This document shows, one piece after another, positions 4,631 through 64,000 of a stretch of DNA of 64,000 bases. Positions within the stretch are counted from its first letter, which is position 1. Each line of letters begins with the position of its first letter. The notes beneath the pieces are model-generated. The model saw nothing but the letters and a program-made list of their open reading frames with translations. It did no database searches and was not told where the DNA came from. This DNA comes from a virus. Location: IMG/VR virus record IMGVR_UViG_3300031420_000490; one strand, 5' to 3'. Position numbers and translations under genes: made by a program.

Positions 4631-5584
4631 ATGGCAGAAGACAGCATCGATCTAGAGCGCGTCCGCGTTCGCTACGACCGCCGGGATGGGGCCTTCAGGC
4701 TCACCTCCGCAGATCCTCGGCTCAAGGGTCGGTCCTTCCGGCTCACGCTCTCCAGGGGCAGCGATGCCGTGGACAGCCTCATGGATGTCTTCGAGGAAGA
4801 GGGTATACTGAGCCCGGAGGATCGCATTCCCACGGTGGTTCAGCTCCGAGAGCTCGGAGGACTCAGCCAGGAAGTCGATGAGTACAGCTTCACTGGCGAG
4901 GAGCGGCCTGTGCAGGACAGCCGGCTGGTCTTCCCCGTGGGTCAGCACATGGGTGGAGCGGCCATGAGCGTGGACCTCGGCTACTCGCCCCACACGCTGG
5001 TCACCGGCGAGGCCGGAACCGGCAAAACTCAGACGCTCCGCATCTTCGCTCGGCAGGCACGGAAGCTTGCTCTCAGCAGCAAGGCCAGCCTCCTCATCGT
5101 GAGCTCCTCCGAGAGCGACGGGAGTAAGTACGCCACCCTGGGGAAGCTCACCGGCATCCTCAGGGCTCGCATTCAGATGCTCCAGTCCACCGGAGCCATG
5201 GATTCCAGGAACTACGAGGCGCGAGTGGGAAGCATGGCCCCTCTCTTCCTCTTCGTGGACGGCCTGGATCGGCTGAAGCTCAGCGACTGGCTTCCCGAGC
5301 TCTTGAGCTTCGGTGAAAAGGTGGGCATCTACCTCTTCGCCACCGTGCGGGCAACTGAGGACATTCCTCGCTTTGCCGACGAGTACACGCTCCTTCACAT
5401 CGGCCGGCGCATCGAGATGGGGCTCCCCAGCGAGGGATCACCCGGGAGCTTCCTCAGCAAGCGACTCTTCGACAGCCTCGGCCGGGGCACCATCAGCACC
5501 AACGGCTTCGCTGCGGAGCTCCTACAGTTCGCAGACATCAGCAGAGATGTGGACGGCAAGGTTCTAGAGAGGATGCTCCCATGA
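4631..5584 (+). CDS. FtsK/HerA-like P-loop ATPase with shared N-terminal domain
   Basis: PHTLVTGEAGTGKT Walker A; LFLFVDG degenerate Walker B; G.KVGI.L. Confidence 0.7.
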   Translation: MAEDSIDLERVRVRYDRRDGAFRLTSADPRLKGRSFRLTLSRGSDAVDSLMDVFEEEGILSPEDRIPTVVQLRELGGLSQEVDEYSFTGEERPVQDSRLVFPVGQHMGGAAMSVDLGYSPHTLVTGEAGTGKTQTLRIFARQARKLALSSKASLLIVSSSESDGSKYATLGKLTGILRARIQMLQSTGAMDSRNYEARVGSMAPLFLFVDGLDRLKLSDWLPELLSFGEKVGIYLFATVRATEDIPRFADEYTLLHIGRRIEMGLPSEGSPGSFLSKRLFDSLGRGTISTNGFAAELLQFADISRDVDGKVLERMLP

Positions 5585-60389: not shown

Positions 60390-60701
60390 TTAGATGGTAC
60401 CCACGCGCTCGCCGCCCATGAGGCCGGAGCCCCGGAAGACCACAGCATGGAAGTCCTCCACATCCGGACCCTGCACATCCTCGTCCGAGGGGAGCTCGAT
60501 GCGGCCCACGATCATGGAGGAGTCGCTCGAAGCGTCGCCGCGGAGGAAGTAGACGGCCTTGGTGCCGAAGACCTTCACCGTAGCGCCCACCACGCCCGGA
60601 CCGAACTCGGTCACATTGCTGTAGCTGATGGGCCCCTCGGCGAAGCGCTTGAGGTCGGCCAGGGTGTTGGACGACTTGAAGGGCGCGAGGATGTCGCTCA
60701 T
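60390..60701 (-). CDS. hypothetical protein (paralogue of 60834)
   Basis: L.DL...AEG.I...Y.LRG......GRIELP; GGAG RBS. Confidence 0.75.
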   Translation of the reverse strand: MSDILAPFKSSNTLADLKRFAEGPISYSNVTEFGPGVVGATVKVFGTKAVYFLRGDASSDSSMIVGRIELPSDEDVQGPDVEDFHAVVFRGSGLMGGERVGTI

Positions 60702-60833
60702 GGGAGTGCTCCGAGTGGTGTTCGATGTGGTGTAGTTCAATCATACACCATGAGCTGACCTCAGCGCACTTTCTTCCACGGCGAAAAGGCCACGGACCCA
60801 CTGTCCGCAGCCTGATCGCAGTTTCCTAGGAGC

Positions 60834-61154
60834 TTAGCCGATGATCTCCAGCATCTTGGCGTCCATGGACTCGCTCACGGCGCCGAGGAAGTAGCCACCC
60901 TTGAGTCCGCTACCCCGGTAGCCCAGCGCCGGGCCCTCGTCGCCTCGGGTGAGCAGGGGGAGTTCGATGCGGCCGATGACCTCGGAGTCCTCGTTGGCCT
61001 GCTCACCGCGGAGGAGGTAGATCGTGGTGATCCCGAGGAACTTCATGGTCACCGAGAAGATGCCCTCGGGGAGCCGGGGCTCGTCGCCGAAGAAGATGTC
61101 ACCCTCGGCGTGCTTGTGGAGGTCGCTGAGACTGAGGTCATTGAGCTTGTTCAT
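60834..61154 (-). CDS. hypothetical protein (paralogue of 60390), leaderless
   Basis: - strand TTGCGG-17-TAGGTT, 6 nt, ATG. Confidence 0.8.
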   Translation of the reverse strand: MNKLNDLSLSDLHKHAEGDIFFGDEPRLPEGIFSVTMKFLGITTIYLLRGEQANEDSEVIGRIELPLLTRGDEGPALGYRGSGLKGGYFLGAVSESMDAKMLEIIG

Positions 61155-61246: not shown

Positions 61247-61699
61247 ATGACCGAAGAGCTTTCCCGAGTTGAGCAGCGTAGGAAGCGCAAGCGCAAGCTG
61301 TTCTGGGGCCGTATTCAAGCCGTACTCATCATCCTGTTGGTCATCGTCCTTCCCACGGTTTTCTTCGGCATTCTCCCCTGGGTCAGTGGGATCTATGACA
61401 GGAGCCACCATCACACCATCGAGTGCGAGGTAGAGAAGGTATACTGGGAGTCCACATCTACTCGTTCAGCTAAGGGAATCGGCGCATCGGGTCGACAGAT
61501 CGTCTTCGATACTAAGGACTGCCGGGGTCACATCCTTCTCACCGAAGGAGTCTACTCGGACAATGTGAAAGAGCTCGCCAAGTCCCTGAAGCCCGGTCGC
61601 TATCGATTCACCGTGGGTGATGCTGAGTGGGCGATTGCTCCCTACTACAAGATTCTCAAGGTTGCGCCCACAGCTCAGAAGTACAAGTACCTAGGATAG
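61247..61699 (+). CDS. membrane-anchored protein (tandem paralogue of 61704)
   Basis: RRKRKRKLFWG, TM helix, I.C.V...YWE...SGKGIGAS.RQIVFDT.DC. Confidence 0.8.
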   Translation: MTEELSRVEQRRKRKRKLFWGRIQAVLIILLVIVLPTVFFGILPWVSGIYDRSHHHTIECEVEKVYWESTSTRSAKGIGASGRQIVFDTKDCRGHILLTEGVYSDNVKELAKSLKPGRYRFTVGDAEWAIAPYYKILKVAPTAQKYKYLG

Positions 61700-61703
61700 G
61701 CAG

Positions 61704-62174
61704 ATGGTGGAAGAGCTCTCCCGAAGCGAGCAGCGCAGGAAACGCAAGCGTAAGCTGTTCTGGGGCCGCGTTCAGGCGATCCTCGTTCTTTCGGCTGTGA
61801 TCCTATTACCGCTGATGGTCTTCGTAGTCGGTCCTCTTGGGATGGAGTCCTACGACAGCAATCACCAGCTCACGATCAAGTGCCATGTGAAAGATATCTA
61901 CTGGGAGCGTACCTCCACCCACTCCGGGAAGGGGATCGGAGCTTCCAGCCGACAGATCGTCTTCGACACCACCGATTGCAACGGCCACCTTCTCCTTCAG
62001 GATGGAGTCTACTGGGACAATGTGGAAGAGCTCACCGACTCGCTGAAGACAGATCGGAACTATGAGTTCCGAGTCGGAAGGATCGAGTGGAAGCTCGCGG
62101 GTACCCCGATCTACACCTGGACGAAGCTTTCCCCCGAGGCGAAGAGCTATAGGTTCCTCCCGAGCACCGATTAG
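61704..62174 (+). CDS. membrane-anchored protein (tandem paralogue of 61247)
   Basis: Same shared motifs as 61247. Confidence 0.8.
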   Translation: MVEELSRSEQRRKRKRKLFWGRVQAILVLSAVILLPLMVFVVGPLGMESYDSNHQLTIKCHVKDIYWERTSTHSGKGIGASSRQIVFDTTDCNGHLLLQDGVYWDNVEELTDSLKTDRNYEFRVGRIEWKLAGTPIYTWTKLSPEAKSYRFLPSTD

Positions 62175-62259
62175 GAGATCTCTAGCTTTATCACTGGCTG
62201 CGACACGCCGAAGCGACAGCACGGTTGCGCAGAGCTGAGCGGTTGTGATAGAGTGTTCT

Positions 62260-62321
62260 TGCAGGCACCTTGAGGTGGCTACTTTTATATGGAAAATGCA
62301 CGCCGTCTCGCCTTTCCTGCA
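62260..62321 (+). ncRNA. stand-alone structured small RNA, copy 1
   Basis: TTGCGC-18-TAGAGT promoter directly upstream; outer and inner stems; terminator downstream. Confidence 0.7.
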
Positions 62322-62328
62322 CCTGAAC

Positions 62329-62369
62329 GCCCCGGACTCACGAGTATCGAGTCCGGGGCTTCTCCTTTT
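62329..62369 (+). terminator. intrinsic terminator after RNA copy 1
   Basis: GCCCCGGACTC/GAGTCCGGGGC followed by TTCTCCTTTT. Confidence 0.75.
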
Positions 62370-62422
62370 GTGCGATCAGCTAAGGCTGAGGTAGTTCGCC
62401 AGCTCCGTAGGGACAGTAGTTC

Positions 62423-62499
62423 ATCAACCCAGGAGGGTTGATTCCACCGAAATCAACCCAGGATGGTTGATAGTGCGAGATCAACGCTCTAGCATTGAT
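62423..62499. repeat. three 20-bp palindromic boxes ATCAAC-N8-RTTGAT
   Basis: Starts at 62423, 62452 and 62480. Confidence 0.8.
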
Positions 62500-62559
62500 T
62501 CCGCCCAAGATGGCGCTGCCCGTTGACAGCTGCCAGCACCCTGTGATAGGATCGATGCT

Positions 62560-62620
62560 GTCAGGCTCCTTGAGGTGGCTACTCACTATTACTGAATCCC
62601 GCCGTCTCGCCTTTCCTGAC
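62560..62620 (+). ncRNA. structured RNA copy 2, in the 5' UTR of ORF 62650
   Basis: TTGACA-18-TAGGAT promoter; same inner stem and internal loop as copy 1, compensatory outer stem. Confidence 0.7.
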
Positions 62621-62649
62621 CTTAGCTTTTCACCCGAAGGAAACACCAC

Positions 62650-64000
62650 ATGGCTACCATCACAGCCACCCTCCGTCAGGCCGCCCTCCGCCGCGGCATC
62701 CTCATCGAGAACCTCACGGGGACCAGCCCCGCCAGCGATGCTGTGCGCTACGCTGCTGTGCTCGAGCTCGCCAACCTGGGTTTCCTCGTGCAGCCCGACG
62801 ATCTCAAGGGCTTCTCCACCAAGGCACTCACTTCCACCATCGAGGGTGCCCGCAAGGTCATCGGCGCTGATCGGAACATGAAGCCGATCTACCCGGGCTT
62901 CCCGAAGCAGGTCGAGGAGCTCTCCACGCTGCAGCTCCTCATGGAGCAGATCCTCCATTACTGGACCGCCGGTCGCTTCCTTCCCAGCCACCCGGACGAG
63001 GTCCGCGAGGGCCTTCCCCTGGAGGACATGCTGCGCAGTGCTCGACAGCTGCGACTCCTGTCGGCAGATGTGGCCCTGGAGGAGCTCCTCAGTGAGCTCG
63101 TCAAGGCTCCTGTCGCGCTCTCCTCGGACGACCGGGAGCTCCTCGCAGAGCTCACCAAGGTGGTCTACGGTGAGGGCTTCCACCGGACCCTCAGCACCGC
63201 CGACCTCGTGCGCAGCTCCACCAACGGCGAGAACATCCAGGTCTTCGGCGAGGCGCTCCGAGACCATGCCTCCAAGGCTGTGCACAGCAAGGATGACTAC
63301 TTCACCGCGGTGAGCTTCGGTATCCGCAACAGCGACCACCTCCTGCGAGTGATCCTGTCCTTCTACGGCGCTCCGGCAGCCGACCGCTGGGTTGAGAACT
63401 ACAAGCTCGCCGTGGGCACCCTGGCCGACCGGCACTTCCGGGCAGTGCGCTTCTCGAGCGTTCCTCGCCACCAGCGCCAGCGCATCGTGGACGCCCTGGG
63501 TAAGCTCACCGAGGGCTACCAGGCCGACCGGCTCGTGGCCCGTCAGAACCTCTGGCGTCGAGTCTTCAAGGGTCTCCACCCCTACGACCTGAAGCTTTCG
63601 GTAGAGTCGAAGCGCGCCCTGGACATCGTCCACAGCAACATCGACTACCGGACCCTGAACTCGGTCATCGAGGAGGCCCTGGAGAGCCGCAGGATCTCTG
63701 AGGCCGTGGAGCTCCTCGCAGAGCACCAGCCGGGCAACCTCCTCCGGCGTCTCGTGGCCATCCTCCGGCTCACGAAGAAGAAGGCGGACGCCAAGGTCCT
63801 CGCGAAGCGCGTGGCTGAGGTCGGTTCGAGGGCTACGCTCTCCACGCTGATCTCTTCCTACAACGGTGTCCTCGGCGCCAACGACGAGCACGCTCGCGTG
63901 AACCGGGTTGCCGAGCTCAACAACACCATGCTGGATCGGGGCGAGGTCGAGAAGATCGACGCGAACTTCCAGGCTGAGATCCTCGGAGCTCTGGATGAGG
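62650..64000 (+). CDS. large alpha-helical protein, 3'-truncated; resembles the MXAN_6230/SCO0854-like (TerD-associated) family without the RING insert
   Basis: Open frame to the window end, AAGGA RBS; LRRG, ELANLGF, PIYPGFPKQV, ILHYW, W.R...LHPY and G.LLRRL motifs. Family call is from memory. Confidence 0.7.
   Translation, partial: MATITATLRQAALRRGILIENLTGTSPASDAVRYAAVLELANLGFLVQPDDLKGFSTKALTSTIEGARKVIGADRNMKPIYPGFPKQVEELSTLQLLMEQILHYWTAGRFLPSHPDEVREGLPLEDMLRSARQLRLLSADVALEELLSELVKAPVALSSDDRELLAELTKVVYGEGFHRTLSTADLVRSSTNGENIQVFGEALRDHASKAVHSKDDYFTAVSFGIRNSDHLLRVILSFYGAPAADRWVENYKLAVGTLADRHFRAVRFSSVPRHQRQRIVDALGKLTEGYQADRLVARQNLWRRVFKGLHPYDLKLSVESKRALDIVHSNIDYRTLNSVIEEALESRRISEAVELLAEHQPGNLLRRLVAILRLTKKKADAKVLAKRVAEVGSRATLSTLISSYNGVLGANDEHARVNRVAELNNTMLDRGEVEKIDANFQAEILGALDE

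What the first reader, a model, noticed from the sequence alone, without database searches (positions are those of the whole stretch)
62225..62650. Twin ~61-nt structured RNAs: one free sRNA and one in the 5' UTR of the downstream gene
Seen, copy 1: UGCAGG-CACCUU-GAGGUGGC-UACUU(loop)-GCCGUCUC-GCCUUU-CCUGCA. Copy 2: GUCAGG-CUCCUU-GAGGUGGC-UACUC(loop)-GCCGUCUC-GCCUUU-CCUGAC. The copies are 300 bp apart. The inner stem (with G-U pairs) and internal loop are conserved, the loops differ, and the outer stems co-vary. Each starts 5-7 nt after its own -10. Copy 1 has a terminator; copy 2 ends 29 nt before ATG 62650. Inference: a protein-binding RNA element giving autoregulation with a decoy or partner sRNA. 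From memory, the stem/internal loop/stem/UACUU layout resembles the Ro60-binding end of bacterial YrlA-type Y RNAs without the tRNA-like domain. This would make it a new RNP system built on the 62650 protein.
Basis: partly seen in the sequence, partly recalled or inferred. Interest (0 to 1): 0.9.

Follow-up and report, generated by a model that had tools for sequence, protein, structure and literature searches.

The report
Small RNAs partnered with Ro60-like protein
The two look-alike ~62-nt hairpins are real members of a widespread, previously undescribed family of structured small RNAs that always sit beside one large uncharacterised phage protein (helical ring-like domain plus TerD domain), most likely forming an RNA-protein particle comparable to Ro60 with its Y RNAs.

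Summary
Both copies (62260-62321, 62560-62620) are present with the stated spacing, promoters and terminator. Only the "loop" is wrong: it is about 21 nt, not 5.

The element is a genuine structured RNA. In 56 distinct copies, 96.7% of cells pair and 12 of 14 pairs show compensatory changes. An independently retrieved distant subfamily gives 92.9% pairing.

The RNA is tightly coupled to the downstream gene. All 62 model hits in 365 kb lie just upstream of a homologue on its strand. All 8 distant homologues examined carry divergent copies, upstream or downstream. An RNA-only pattern search in viral contigs landed beside the gene in 23 of 36 loci.

The protein (~714 aa, no Pfam hit, at least 2117 clusters) models as a helical domain plus a TerD fold. 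The helical domain's three best solved matches are the three Ro60 representatives, but only at Z about 8. It is closer to predicted DUF4132/ZorC-EH-like proteins.

In two lineages one copy carries a YrlA-type tRNA-like insert (sub-threshold Rfam hits). Neighbours include 2H and HAD "RNA repair" enzymes and RtcB.

Best reading: a new Y-RNA-like RNP. It is not a member of YrlA or TROVE. Binding and expression are untested.

The parts
62225..62254 (+). Promoter of copy 1: TTGCGC, 18-nt spacer, extended -10 TGa-TAGAGT
   Evidence: Read. The same layout (TTGNNN -35 with TGNTANNNT) precedes nearly every non-tandem copy in the related loci. The -35 is too weak for the consensus scan.
62260..62321 (+). 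RNA copy 1: P1 (6 bp), 6x6 pyrimidine-rich internal loop, P2 (8 bp with tandem G-U/U-G), 22-nt A/U-rich apical loop
   Evidence: cmsearch 70.4 bits, E 4e-16. The MFE fold reproduces the structure. Covariation.
62330..62372 (+). Intrinsic terminator of copy 1: 10-bp GC-rich stem, 9-nt loop, U-tract. This would give a free sRNA of about 105-112 nt.
   Evidence: Fold. Equivalent terminators follow distal or single copies in most related loci. The simple scan missed it because the loop exceeds 8 nt.
62423..62499 (.). Three 20-bp palindromes (ATCAAC-N8-GTTGAT type) between the terminator and the copy-2 promoter. Possible operator sites for the copy-2/gene promoter.
Evidence: Read. Not analysed further.
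62523..62552 (+). Promoter of copy 2 and the gene: TTGACA, 18-nt spacer, TGa-TAGGAT
   Evidence: Consensus scan, 10 of 12 matches with TG.
62560..62620 (+). RNA copy 2, at the 5' end of the mRNA leader
   Evidence: cmsearch 63.0 bits, E 4e-14. Fold.
62636..62641 (+). Shine-Dalgarno GAAGGA, 16 nt after copy 2 and 8 nt before the ATG
   Evidence: Read. Proximal copies in relatives end 23-33 nt before the start codon.
62650..64000 (+). Partner protein gene, first 450 codons (it runs off the window). It is 714 aa in the 97%-identical relative P0001/L002. Domains: N-terminal part, helical Ro60-like/DUF4132-like domain (residues ~138-460), TerD fold (~490-680).
   Evidence: The 503-aa ORF on the minus strand (62380-63891) is its antisense shadow.

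Best explanation
The two elements belong to a conserved family of ~60-75-nt structured small RNAs. These RNAs are most likely the cognate ligands of the adjacent ~700-aa protein.

RNA anatomy: a closing helix P1 that ends in GG/CC; an internal loop with invariant C8, C10, U84 and U85; an 8-bp helix P2 with a conserved tandem G-U/U-G; and a variable A/U-rich apical region that starts U-A-C-U-U.

Protein anatomy: a nucleic-acid-binding helical domain resembling the Ro60 ring and DUF4132/ZorC-EH domains, followed by a TerD domain where Ro60 has its vWA domain.

In this window, copy 1 is transcribed from its own promoter and terminated, giving a free sRNA of about 105-110 nt. Copy 2 forms the 5' end of the protein's mRNA.

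Inferred mechanism:
- The protein binds the stem / internal-loop / stem module, as Ro60 binds the Y RNA stem. The apical region is a swappable effector module, which in some relatives is a YrlA-type tRNA mimic.
- Binding to copy 2, 16 nt upstream of the SD, would feed back on translation. The free copy would supply RNA in excess of protein.
- The particle probably acts in phage RNA repair or quality control, or as a counter-measure to RNA-targeting host defence.

Shown here: the structure, its conservation, the genomic coupling and the transcription-unit layout. Inferred: binding, autoregulation and biological role.
For: 1. The RNA is real.
- Seed alignment: 94.6% of cells paired, against 38-55% when partners are slid.
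- 56 distinct copies: 96.7% paired, 12 of 14 pairs with compensatory changes, 0 of 500 shuffles as good.
- Distant subfamily, retrieved by a pattern that left 12 of the 14 pairs unconstrained and aligned by MAFFT only: 92.9% paired against 53% shuffled, covariation score 0.99 against 0.20.
- Conserved G-U pairs and single-strand occurrence point to RNA rather than DNA.

2. The coupling is real.
- 62 of 62 CM hits in 365 kb, both strands searched, are on the gene's strand and upstream of a homologue (61 within ~660 nt, one at -1.1 kb), 1-5 copies per locus, in 37 of 37 loci with upstream sequence.
- The complete 115-kb phage WXIN genome holds only the 5 tandem copies before its homologue.
- All 8 distant homologues examined have divergent copies nearby: Weasels2, XacN1 and L054-L059. 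16 of 18 fold to the same architecture.
- Reciprocal test from an RNA-only pattern: 23 of 36 viral loci encode the protein next to the match.

3. Copies sit downstream of the gene in Weasels2, L054, L057, L058, L063, L064 and L092. Most have their own promoter and terminator. They are therefore RNA genes, not merely leaders.

4. The conserved unpaired nucleotides change with the protein subfamily: CUCCUU/GCYUUU + UACUU; AUUAAG/CGCUCA + UUACUUC; CUAU/GCUUU + UUCCUUCUAA. This is as expected for a co-evolving partner.

5. Protein fold.
- The Ro60 representatives rank 1-3 of 48,161 chains: Z 8.2, 7.8 and 7.6, with 258-265 residues aligned over the HEAT ring.
- TerD fold at Z 13.2. Pfam TerD scores above cutoff in distant member P0191.
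- The closest predicted-structure relative is named a ZorC EH-domain protein, and E. coli ZorC binds nucleic acid (PMC11946911).

6. Y-RNA parallels.
- One copy in Weasels2 and one in L058 carry a T-arm / acceptor-like hairpin / D-arm in YrlA order. Rfam YrlA scores 26.4 and 32.8 bits.
- These phages lack a canonical TROVE gene, and the positive controls for that search worked.
- Bacterial Y RNAs are likewise multi-copy, lie within 4 kb on the Ro60 strand, and include one tRNA-like member plus simpler hairpins (PMC4201824).

7. Neighbours: 2H-SAK phosphoesterase in 5 loci, HAD_SAK_2, R2K ATP-grasp, RtcB and tRNA clusters.
Against: - No binding or expression data exist. No usable RNA-seq was found.
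- Similarity to Ro60 is structural only and moderate (Z about 8, inside the range that helical repeats can reach by chance). In AFDB, TROVE is only rank 22, behind DUF4132/ZorC-EH-like proteins. No profile-level link to TROVE was found.
- The YrlA hits are far below the gathering score of 69 bits. That model also gives sub-threshold hits in 13 of 14 control genomes.
- The GNCGAAN0-1G Ro60-contact motif is absent in 52 of 56 copies.
- ZorC binds dsDNA, so the helical domain could be a DNA binder.
- Tight linkage is also what a purely regulatory element of the gene would show.
Confidence: 0.6

Rival explanations
1. A purely cis-acting leader. The hairpin would be a 5'-UTR element (mRNA stabiliser, attenuator or riboswitch-like sensor) controlling expression of the downstream gene, with no trans-acting RNP role.
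For: The proximal copy always ends 23-33 nt before the start codon. Single-copy loci have the order promoter, motif, terminator-like hairpin, RBS, which is the classic attenuator layout. The motif starts at the predicted transcription start.
Against: Copies lie downstream of the gene in Weasels2, L054, L057, L058, L063, L064 and L092. Distal copies have their own promoter and terminator. Arrays reach 4-5 copies, some with tRNA-like inserts. No alternative pairing between motif and terminator was seen.
Confidence: 0.12
2. An RNA inhibitor of the protein, resembling a type III toxin-antitoxin pair. The repeats would be processed into units that neutralise a harmful TerD protein, and the terminator would set the RNA:protein ratio.
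For: Tandem repeats directly upstream (5 in WXIN, 3 in L018 and L032). A terminator lies between RNA and gene in single-copy loci.
Against: The repeats are not identical; they differ by compensatory changes. Units are 60-75 nt rather than about 36 nt. The protein is 700 aa with no recognisable nuclease and no PADLOC hit. Copies can be downstream or carry their own promoter.
Confidence: 0.08
3. The RNAs act on host or phage targets independently of the neighbouring protein. Examples would be decoys for tRNA- or rRNA-targeting nucleases, or tRNA-like scaffolds for RtcB or other repair enzymes. The gene linkage would then reflect only a shared module.
For: tRNA-like inserts, tRNA clusters, and RtcB and 2H enzymes nearby. 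The invariant apical UUCCUUCUAA / UACUU could be a recognition or pairing site.
Against: The RNA is linked to this one gene far more consistently than to any repair enzyme: 2H-SAK appears in only 5 of 21 long loci. RNA subtype tracks protein subfamily.
Confidence: 0.1
4. A DNA-level repeat, such as an operator, a recombination site or a promoter-linked element, rather than an RNA.
For: It is closely tied to promoters. Palindromic operators also lie nearby (62423-62499).
Against: Pairs are kept through G-U and U-G wobbles, which are not complementary in DNA. Compensatory changes preserve pairing rather than sequence. All copies are on the gene's strand.
Confidence: 0.02

Closest known systems
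Ro60 (Rsr/TROVE) with bacterial and phage Y RNAs (YrlA/YrlB, Yrn1/2; phage phiLo Yrl1/2)
   Same: Several small RNAs are encoded next to, and on the strand of, a large helical RNA-binding protein. The RNA has a stem / internal loop / stem protein-binding module with a variable distal module. One family member carries a permuted tRNA-like T/D-arm domain and the others are simple hairpins. The context is RNA repair (RtcB, end-healing enzymes). The protein's best solved-structure matches are Ro60 (PMC4201824, PMC12135203).
   Different: No TROVE sequence signature. A TerD domain replaces vWA/MIDAS, and there is an extra ~137-aa N-terminal part. The RNA lacks the GNCGAAN0-1G/GGUCCGA contact motif and does not match Rfam YrlA or Y_RNA. 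The conserved internal loop is pyrimidine-rich on both strands. The window's copies have no tRNA-like domain.
MXAN_6230/SCO0854 family (NCBIfam NF041916), with DUF4132/ZorC-EH-like helical proteins
   Same: Homologous over ~354 residues of helical domain plus TerD (155 bits, E 3e-45). AFDB neighbours are named TerD family, RING finger family, DUF4132 and ZorC EH domain. ZorC binds nucleic acid (PMC11946911).
   Different: The score is well below the family cutoff of 600 bits. The match starts at profile position 372 of 842, so the N-terminal part of the family profile is not matched, and no RING domain was detected. No ZorA/B/D partners and no PADLOC hit. No RNA partner has been reported for these families in the literature searched.
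Type III toxin-antitoxin loci (ToxIN-like)
   Same: The order promoter, tandem RNA repeats, terminator, protein gene, as seen in some loci.
   Different: Repeats are non-identical and longer. The protein is large and not a known endoRNase. RNAs are often downstream or independently transcribed.

Membership tests
YrlA / Y RNA (Rfam RF02553, RF00019) | Match to the covariance model at or above the gathering score | tested here: not met
   No Rfam hit over either copy, even at E<=10. Two relatives' inserts score 26.4 and 32.8 bits against a gathering score of 69. The model gives sub-threshold hits in 13 of 14 control genomes.
YrlA / Y RNA | GNCGAAN0-1G (or GGUCCGA) Ro60-contact motif near the 5' end | tested here: not met
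   CGAA is present in 4 of 56 distinct copies. The consensus is CUCCUU-GARG.
YrlA / Y RNA | tRNA-like domain (T arm, acceptor-like stem, D arm) | tested here: not met
   Absent from both window copies. Present in one copy each in Weasels2 and L058.
YrlA / Y RNA | Encoded within ~4 kb of, and on the same strand as, a Ro60 orthologue, and bound by it | tested here: inconclusive
   The RNA is always adjacent to, and on the strand of, a protein whose fold is only Ro60-like. No canonical TROVE gene in WXIN, Weasels2 or XacN1. Binding cannot be tested with these tools.
Ro60 / TROVE (PF05731) | TROVE sequence profile match | tested here: not met
   No Pfam hit at E<=0.1 for the window protein or the WXIN protein, nor at E<=10 for 36 family members. 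An HMM search against PDB sequences found no Ro60.
Ro60 / TROVE | HEAT-repeat ring fold | tested here: inconclusive
   The three Ro60 representatives are ranks 1-3 of 48,161 chains, but at Z 7.6-8.2 and rmsd 4.8-6.4 over 258-265 residues. In AFDB, TROVE is rank 22 with TM 0.35.
Ro60 / TROVE | C-terminal vWA domain with MIDAS closing the ring | tested here: not met
   The C-terminal domain is a TerD fold: 3ibz Z 13.2; TerZ/TerD at probability 1.0.
TerD domain (PF02342) | TerD beta-sandwich fold or profile | tested here: met
   Structure: Z 12.5-13.2 to four TerD-family structures. Sequence: distant member P0191 scores 26.6 bits, above the 25.3 cutoff. P0001 itself shows no Pfam hit.
MXAN_6230/SCO0854 RING-domain family (NF041916) | Full-length equivalog score (>=600 bits), including the N-terminal RING | tested here: not met
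   155 bits, covering only profile positions 372-725 of 842.
Type III toxin-antitoxin | Near-identical tandem RNA repeats, processed by a small adjacent endoRNase toxin | tested here: not met
   Copies differ by compensatory changes. The protein is ~700 aa with no nuclease or defence-family hit.

The most novel reading that the evidence does not exclude
A second, previously unrecognised class of Y-RNA-like ribonucleoprotein. It would be built on a DUF4132/ZorC-EH-like (Ro60-like) helical domain fused to TerD, rather than on TROVE-vWA. Its own RNA family is modular: an invariant protein-binding stem carries interchangeable apical modules, including YrlA-type tRNA mimics. The system would be widespread in actinophages, jumbo phages and some bacteria (at least 2117 protein clusters at 50% identity) and would work with RNA-repair enzymes against RNA-targeting defences. 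It would also give the first molecular ligand for a branch of the enigmatic TerD and DUF4132/ZorC-EH protein families.
Probability: 0.5. Interest if true: 0.88.

Novelty: new variant of a known kind. Interest (0 to 1): 0.82.

Why it matters
- Y RNAs and Ro60 are the paradigm for RNA-gated RNA quality control. A parallel system with a different protein architecture and a different RNA scaffold, but the same modular logic down to a tRNA-mimic module, would show that this design evolved or diversified more than once.
- It would assign a partner, and a testable function, to a large orphan protein family found in phages (including jumbo phages) and in actinobacteria.
- It would link TerD and DUF4132/ZorC-EH-like domains to RNA.
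- It adds a well-supported RNA family that is absent from Rfam 15.
- It offers tractable models: Mycobacterium phage WXIN, Rhodococcus phage Weasels2 and Xanthomonas phage XacN1.

Tried and rejected
- A third small hairpin (P3) in the apical loop. The best stems average 3.98 bp against 3.93 in shuffled loops, so it is not supported.
- Rfam scan of the window region: nothing.
- Whole-genome search: no genome is held for this window.
- Plasmid collection: no match.
- Protein-pattern scan of IMG/VR: 40 pattern stretches, none confirmed.
- Genome contigs: a single MAG contig.
- Window-type RNA pattern in IMG/VR: 0 hits. The distant-type pattern worked.
- Expression data: only DNA holders, plus two RNA-labelled runs with short coding fragments of relatives. 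Nothing covers the RNAs.
- Sequence-level links of the helical domain to solved structures, Pfam and PADLOC: none.
- The Burroughs & Aravind 2016 RNA-repair paper could not be read. What is said about the "SAK" domains rests on the Pfam descriptions.
- Literature searches for SCO0854/MXAN_6230, for TerD with an RNA motif, and for phage Y RNAs found no prior description.
- Considered and dropped for lack of evidence: the apical loop as a tRNA anticodon-loop mimic or anti-SD mimic; put-like antitermination RNA; retron or guide-RNA systems (no RT or nuclease).
- 13 of the 36 RNA-pattern loci showed no protein in the stored fragment. Some lie on the same contigs as positive loci, and by my own rough estimate about 8 chance matches were expected. 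These were not followed up.
Full report
**1. Observation**

The sequence contains both copies as described.
- Copy 1 is 62260-62321 and copy 2 is 62560-62620, 300 nt apart start to start.
- Both share CCUUGAGGUGGCUACU and CGCCGUCUCGCCUUUCCUG exactly. These blocks occur nowhere else in the window, and none of 100 shuffles reached the observed counts.
- The outer stems (UGCAGG/CCUGCA against GUCAGG/CCUGAC) differ by two compensatory changes.
- Each copy begins 5-7 nt after an actinobacterial-type extended -10: TGa-TAGAGT for copy 1 and TGa-TAGGAT for copy 2. The consensus scan found the copy-2 promoter.
- Copy 1 is followed by a strong intrinsic terminator. Motif plus terminator fold to -44.3 kcal/mol, z -3.25.
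- Copy 2 ends 29 nt before ATG 62650, with GAAGGA as the SD.
- One correction: the "loop" is 21-22 nt and A/U-rich. A further hairpin inside it is not better than chance.

**2. Is it a real structured RNA?**

The downstream ORF has a homologue in Mycobacterium phage WXIN. Five tandem related hairpins fill the 414-nt gap upstream of that gene.

A 20-sequence seed alignment supports P1 (6 bp) and P2 (8 bp). 94.6% of cells pair, against 38-55% when partners are slid.

A covariance model was built from the seed and run over the window plus 38 loci, 365 kb on both strands. It found 62 hits. All are on the gene's strand and all lie upstream of a homologue (61 within ~660 nt, one at -1.1 kb), with 1-5 copies per locus.

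On the 56 distinct copies, 96.7% of cells pair and 12 of 14 pairs show compensatory changes.

Invariant unpaired positions are C8, C10, U84, U85 and U22, with C24 nearly invariant. A tandem G-U/U-G in P2 is also conserved. This pattern is typical of a protein- or tertiary-contact surface.

In the complete WXIN genome the only matches are the five copies.

**3. The protein**

The family is large.
- 196 word-indexed hits at about 705-720 aa, none with a Pfam domain.
- 2117 clusters at 50% identity with E<=1e-3 in the exhaustive profile search.

NCBIfam links it to the MXAN_6230/SCO0854 family, at 155 bits and far below the 600-bit cutoff. The match covers only profile positions 372-725 of 842, so the N-terminal part of that family's profile, where its RING would be, is not matched.

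The AF2 model (pLDDT 82.6) has a C-terminal TerD fold, with Z 13.2 to 3ibz. Pfam TerD scores above cutoff in distant member P0191.

The helical domain was modelled alone (pLDDT 90.4) and compared without Foldseek to 48,161 PDB representatives. The three Ro60 representatives rank first, second and third:
- phage phiLo Ro60, Z 8.2;
- D. radiodurans Rsr, Z 7.8;
- Xenopus Ro, Z 7.6.

Each aligns 258-265 residues across the HEAT ring.

This similarity is specific in rank but modest in Z. Among predicted structures the nearest are proteins named ZorC-EH-domain, DUF4132, TerD-family and RING-finger, with TM 0.52-0.60 for the top four. TROVE appears only at rank 22, and the ESM Atlas search agrees. 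No sequence-level TROVE signal exists.

ZorC's EH domain binds nucleic acid (PMC11946911). I therefore call the domain "Ro60-like/DUF4132-like, probably nucleic-acid binding", not TROVE.

**4. How far does the RNA-protein coupling extend?**

Isolated phages that carry the protein are WXIN, Rhodococcus phage Weasels2 and Xanthomonas jumbo phage XacN1, with partial matches in two more.

*Weasels2.* Four divergent copies lie immediately downstream of the gene. The third copy holds, inside the same P1 / internal-loop / P2 scaffold, a T arm, an acceptor-like hairpin and a D arm in the permuted order typical of YrlA. Rfam YrlA scores it at 26.4 bits, covering model positions 23-86.

*XacN1.* Three divergent copies lie in the 500-nt gap upstream of the gene.

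*Distant metagenomic homologues.* Six were fetched and all have copies, upstream or downstream, usually with their own promoter and terminator. In L058, one of four copies again carries a YrlA-like insert, scoring 32.8 bits across the full model.

None of WXIN, Weasels2 or XacN1 encodes a canonical TROVE protein, and the positive controls for that search worked.

*Caveat.* The YrlA hits are sub-threshold. That model also gives sub-threshold hits in 13 of 14 control genomes.

*Reciprocal test.* An RNA-only pattern was scanned over IMG/VR. It fixed only GGCUAT, TTCCTTCTA and CTTTCC. It returned 36 loci, and 23 of them encode the protein directly beside the match on the same strand. Many lie on contigs of 150-480 kb.

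In a MAFFT alignment of these sequences, the unconstrained stem positions pair in 92.9% of cells, against 53% when shuffled. The covariation score is 0.99 against 0.20.

The conserved single-stranded nucleotides differ between protein subfamilies but keep three features: GGCU at the 5' junction, GCUUUCC at the 3' junction and U-N-CUU at the start of the apical region.

**5. Context**

- Neighbours include a 2H "Swiss Army Knife" phosphoesterase in five loci, a HAD_SAK_2 phosphatase and an R2K ATP-grasp enzyme.
- RtcB lies 3 kb downstream in Weasels2, and tRNA gene clusters are nearby.
- A conserved ~230-aa unknown protein accompanies the gene in nine loci.
- The window itself has no tRNA.
- It comes from a phyllosphere metagenome.

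**6. Interpretation**

The evidence fits cognate small RNAs of the adjacent protein forming an RNP analogous to Ro60-Y RNA.
- Several RNAs sit per locus on the protein's strand.
- There is a conserved stem module and a variable distal module.
- One member of the array can be a tRNA mimic.
- The genomic context is RNA repair.

This matches the published description of bacterial and phage Y RNAs (PMC4201824, PMC12135203).

In this window, copy 1 is a free sRNA and copy 2 is the mRNA's 5' end. Protein binding there would plausibly repress translation. In single-copy loci the terminator would set an excess of RNA over protein.

These mechanistic steps are inferences. Neither binding nor expression could be tested.

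Rival readings:
- A pure cis-regulatory leader is disfavoured by downstream and independently transcribed copies.
- A type III TA-like reading is disfavoured by non-identical repeats and by the nature of the protein.
- A DNA element is disfavoured by the conserved wobble pairs.

**7. Known or new?**

The RNA is not in Rfam 15. It fails the defining tests for YrlA. The protein fails the tests for TROVE and for the SCO0854 equivalog.

No paper found here describes an RNA partner for TerD, SCO0854 or DUF4132 proteins. A jumbo-phage survey lists standalone TerD genes in actinobacterial phages and reads them only as Ter-system components (PMC7824862).

I therefore rate this a new variant of a known kind, a Y-RNA-like RNP. 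There is a substantial chance that it deserves to be treated as a distinct RNP class.

The earlier notes from this scan came from the same window. The scan has not reported this element on other DNA.

Noticed in passing
window 62423-62499: Three 20-bp palindromes of the form ATCAAC-N8-GTTGAT, spaced about 28-29 bp apart. They sit between the copy-1 terminator and the copy-2 promoter. They are probably operator sites for an unidentified regulator of the copy-2/gene promoter.
   Followed up: partly
window 61247-61699 and 61704-62174 (+): Two tandem paralogous genes (150 and 156 aa). Both have the same basic N-terminus (EELSR.EQRRKRKRKLFWGR) and one transmembrane helix, and neither has a meaningful Pfam hit. 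They lie directly upstream of the RNA locus and are also present in the close relatives L002, L006 and L008.
   Followed up: partly
window 60390-60740 and 60834-61154 (-): Two paralogous small ORFs on the opposite strand (116 and 106 aa) that share motifs (RGD/RGE...IGRIELP...GSGL.GG). No Pfam hit.
   Followed up: no
window 62380-63891 (-): The 503-aa ORF is an antisense shadow of the real plus-strand gene. It should not be annotated as a gene.
   Followed up: yes
L008:9464-10174, L003:3202-3885, L012:1745-2452, L038:9218-9895 and five more loci: A conserved ~230-aa protein of unknown function accompanies the RNA-protein locus in 9 of 21 long loci. It has only faint LOR/tubby-like hints. It is a candidate third component.
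   Followed up: partly
L045 (XacN1) about 5484-5559: By eye, a tRNA-like sequence ending in CCA lies between the divergent RNA copies upstream of ORF396. Neither ARAGORN nor Rfam tRNA called it.
   Followed up: no
L058:3862-3999: A tRNA-model hit 138 nt long (34.5 bits), so with a large insertion, lies just before the downstream RNA array of a distant homologue.
   Followed up: no
L003, L012, L016, L036, L038 and several IMG/VR loci: Many homologues lie on contigs of 0.2-0.83 Mb with dense small unannotated ORFs. These may be jumbo or mega-phages, or large actinobacterial elements. Their nature was not established.
   Followed up: no
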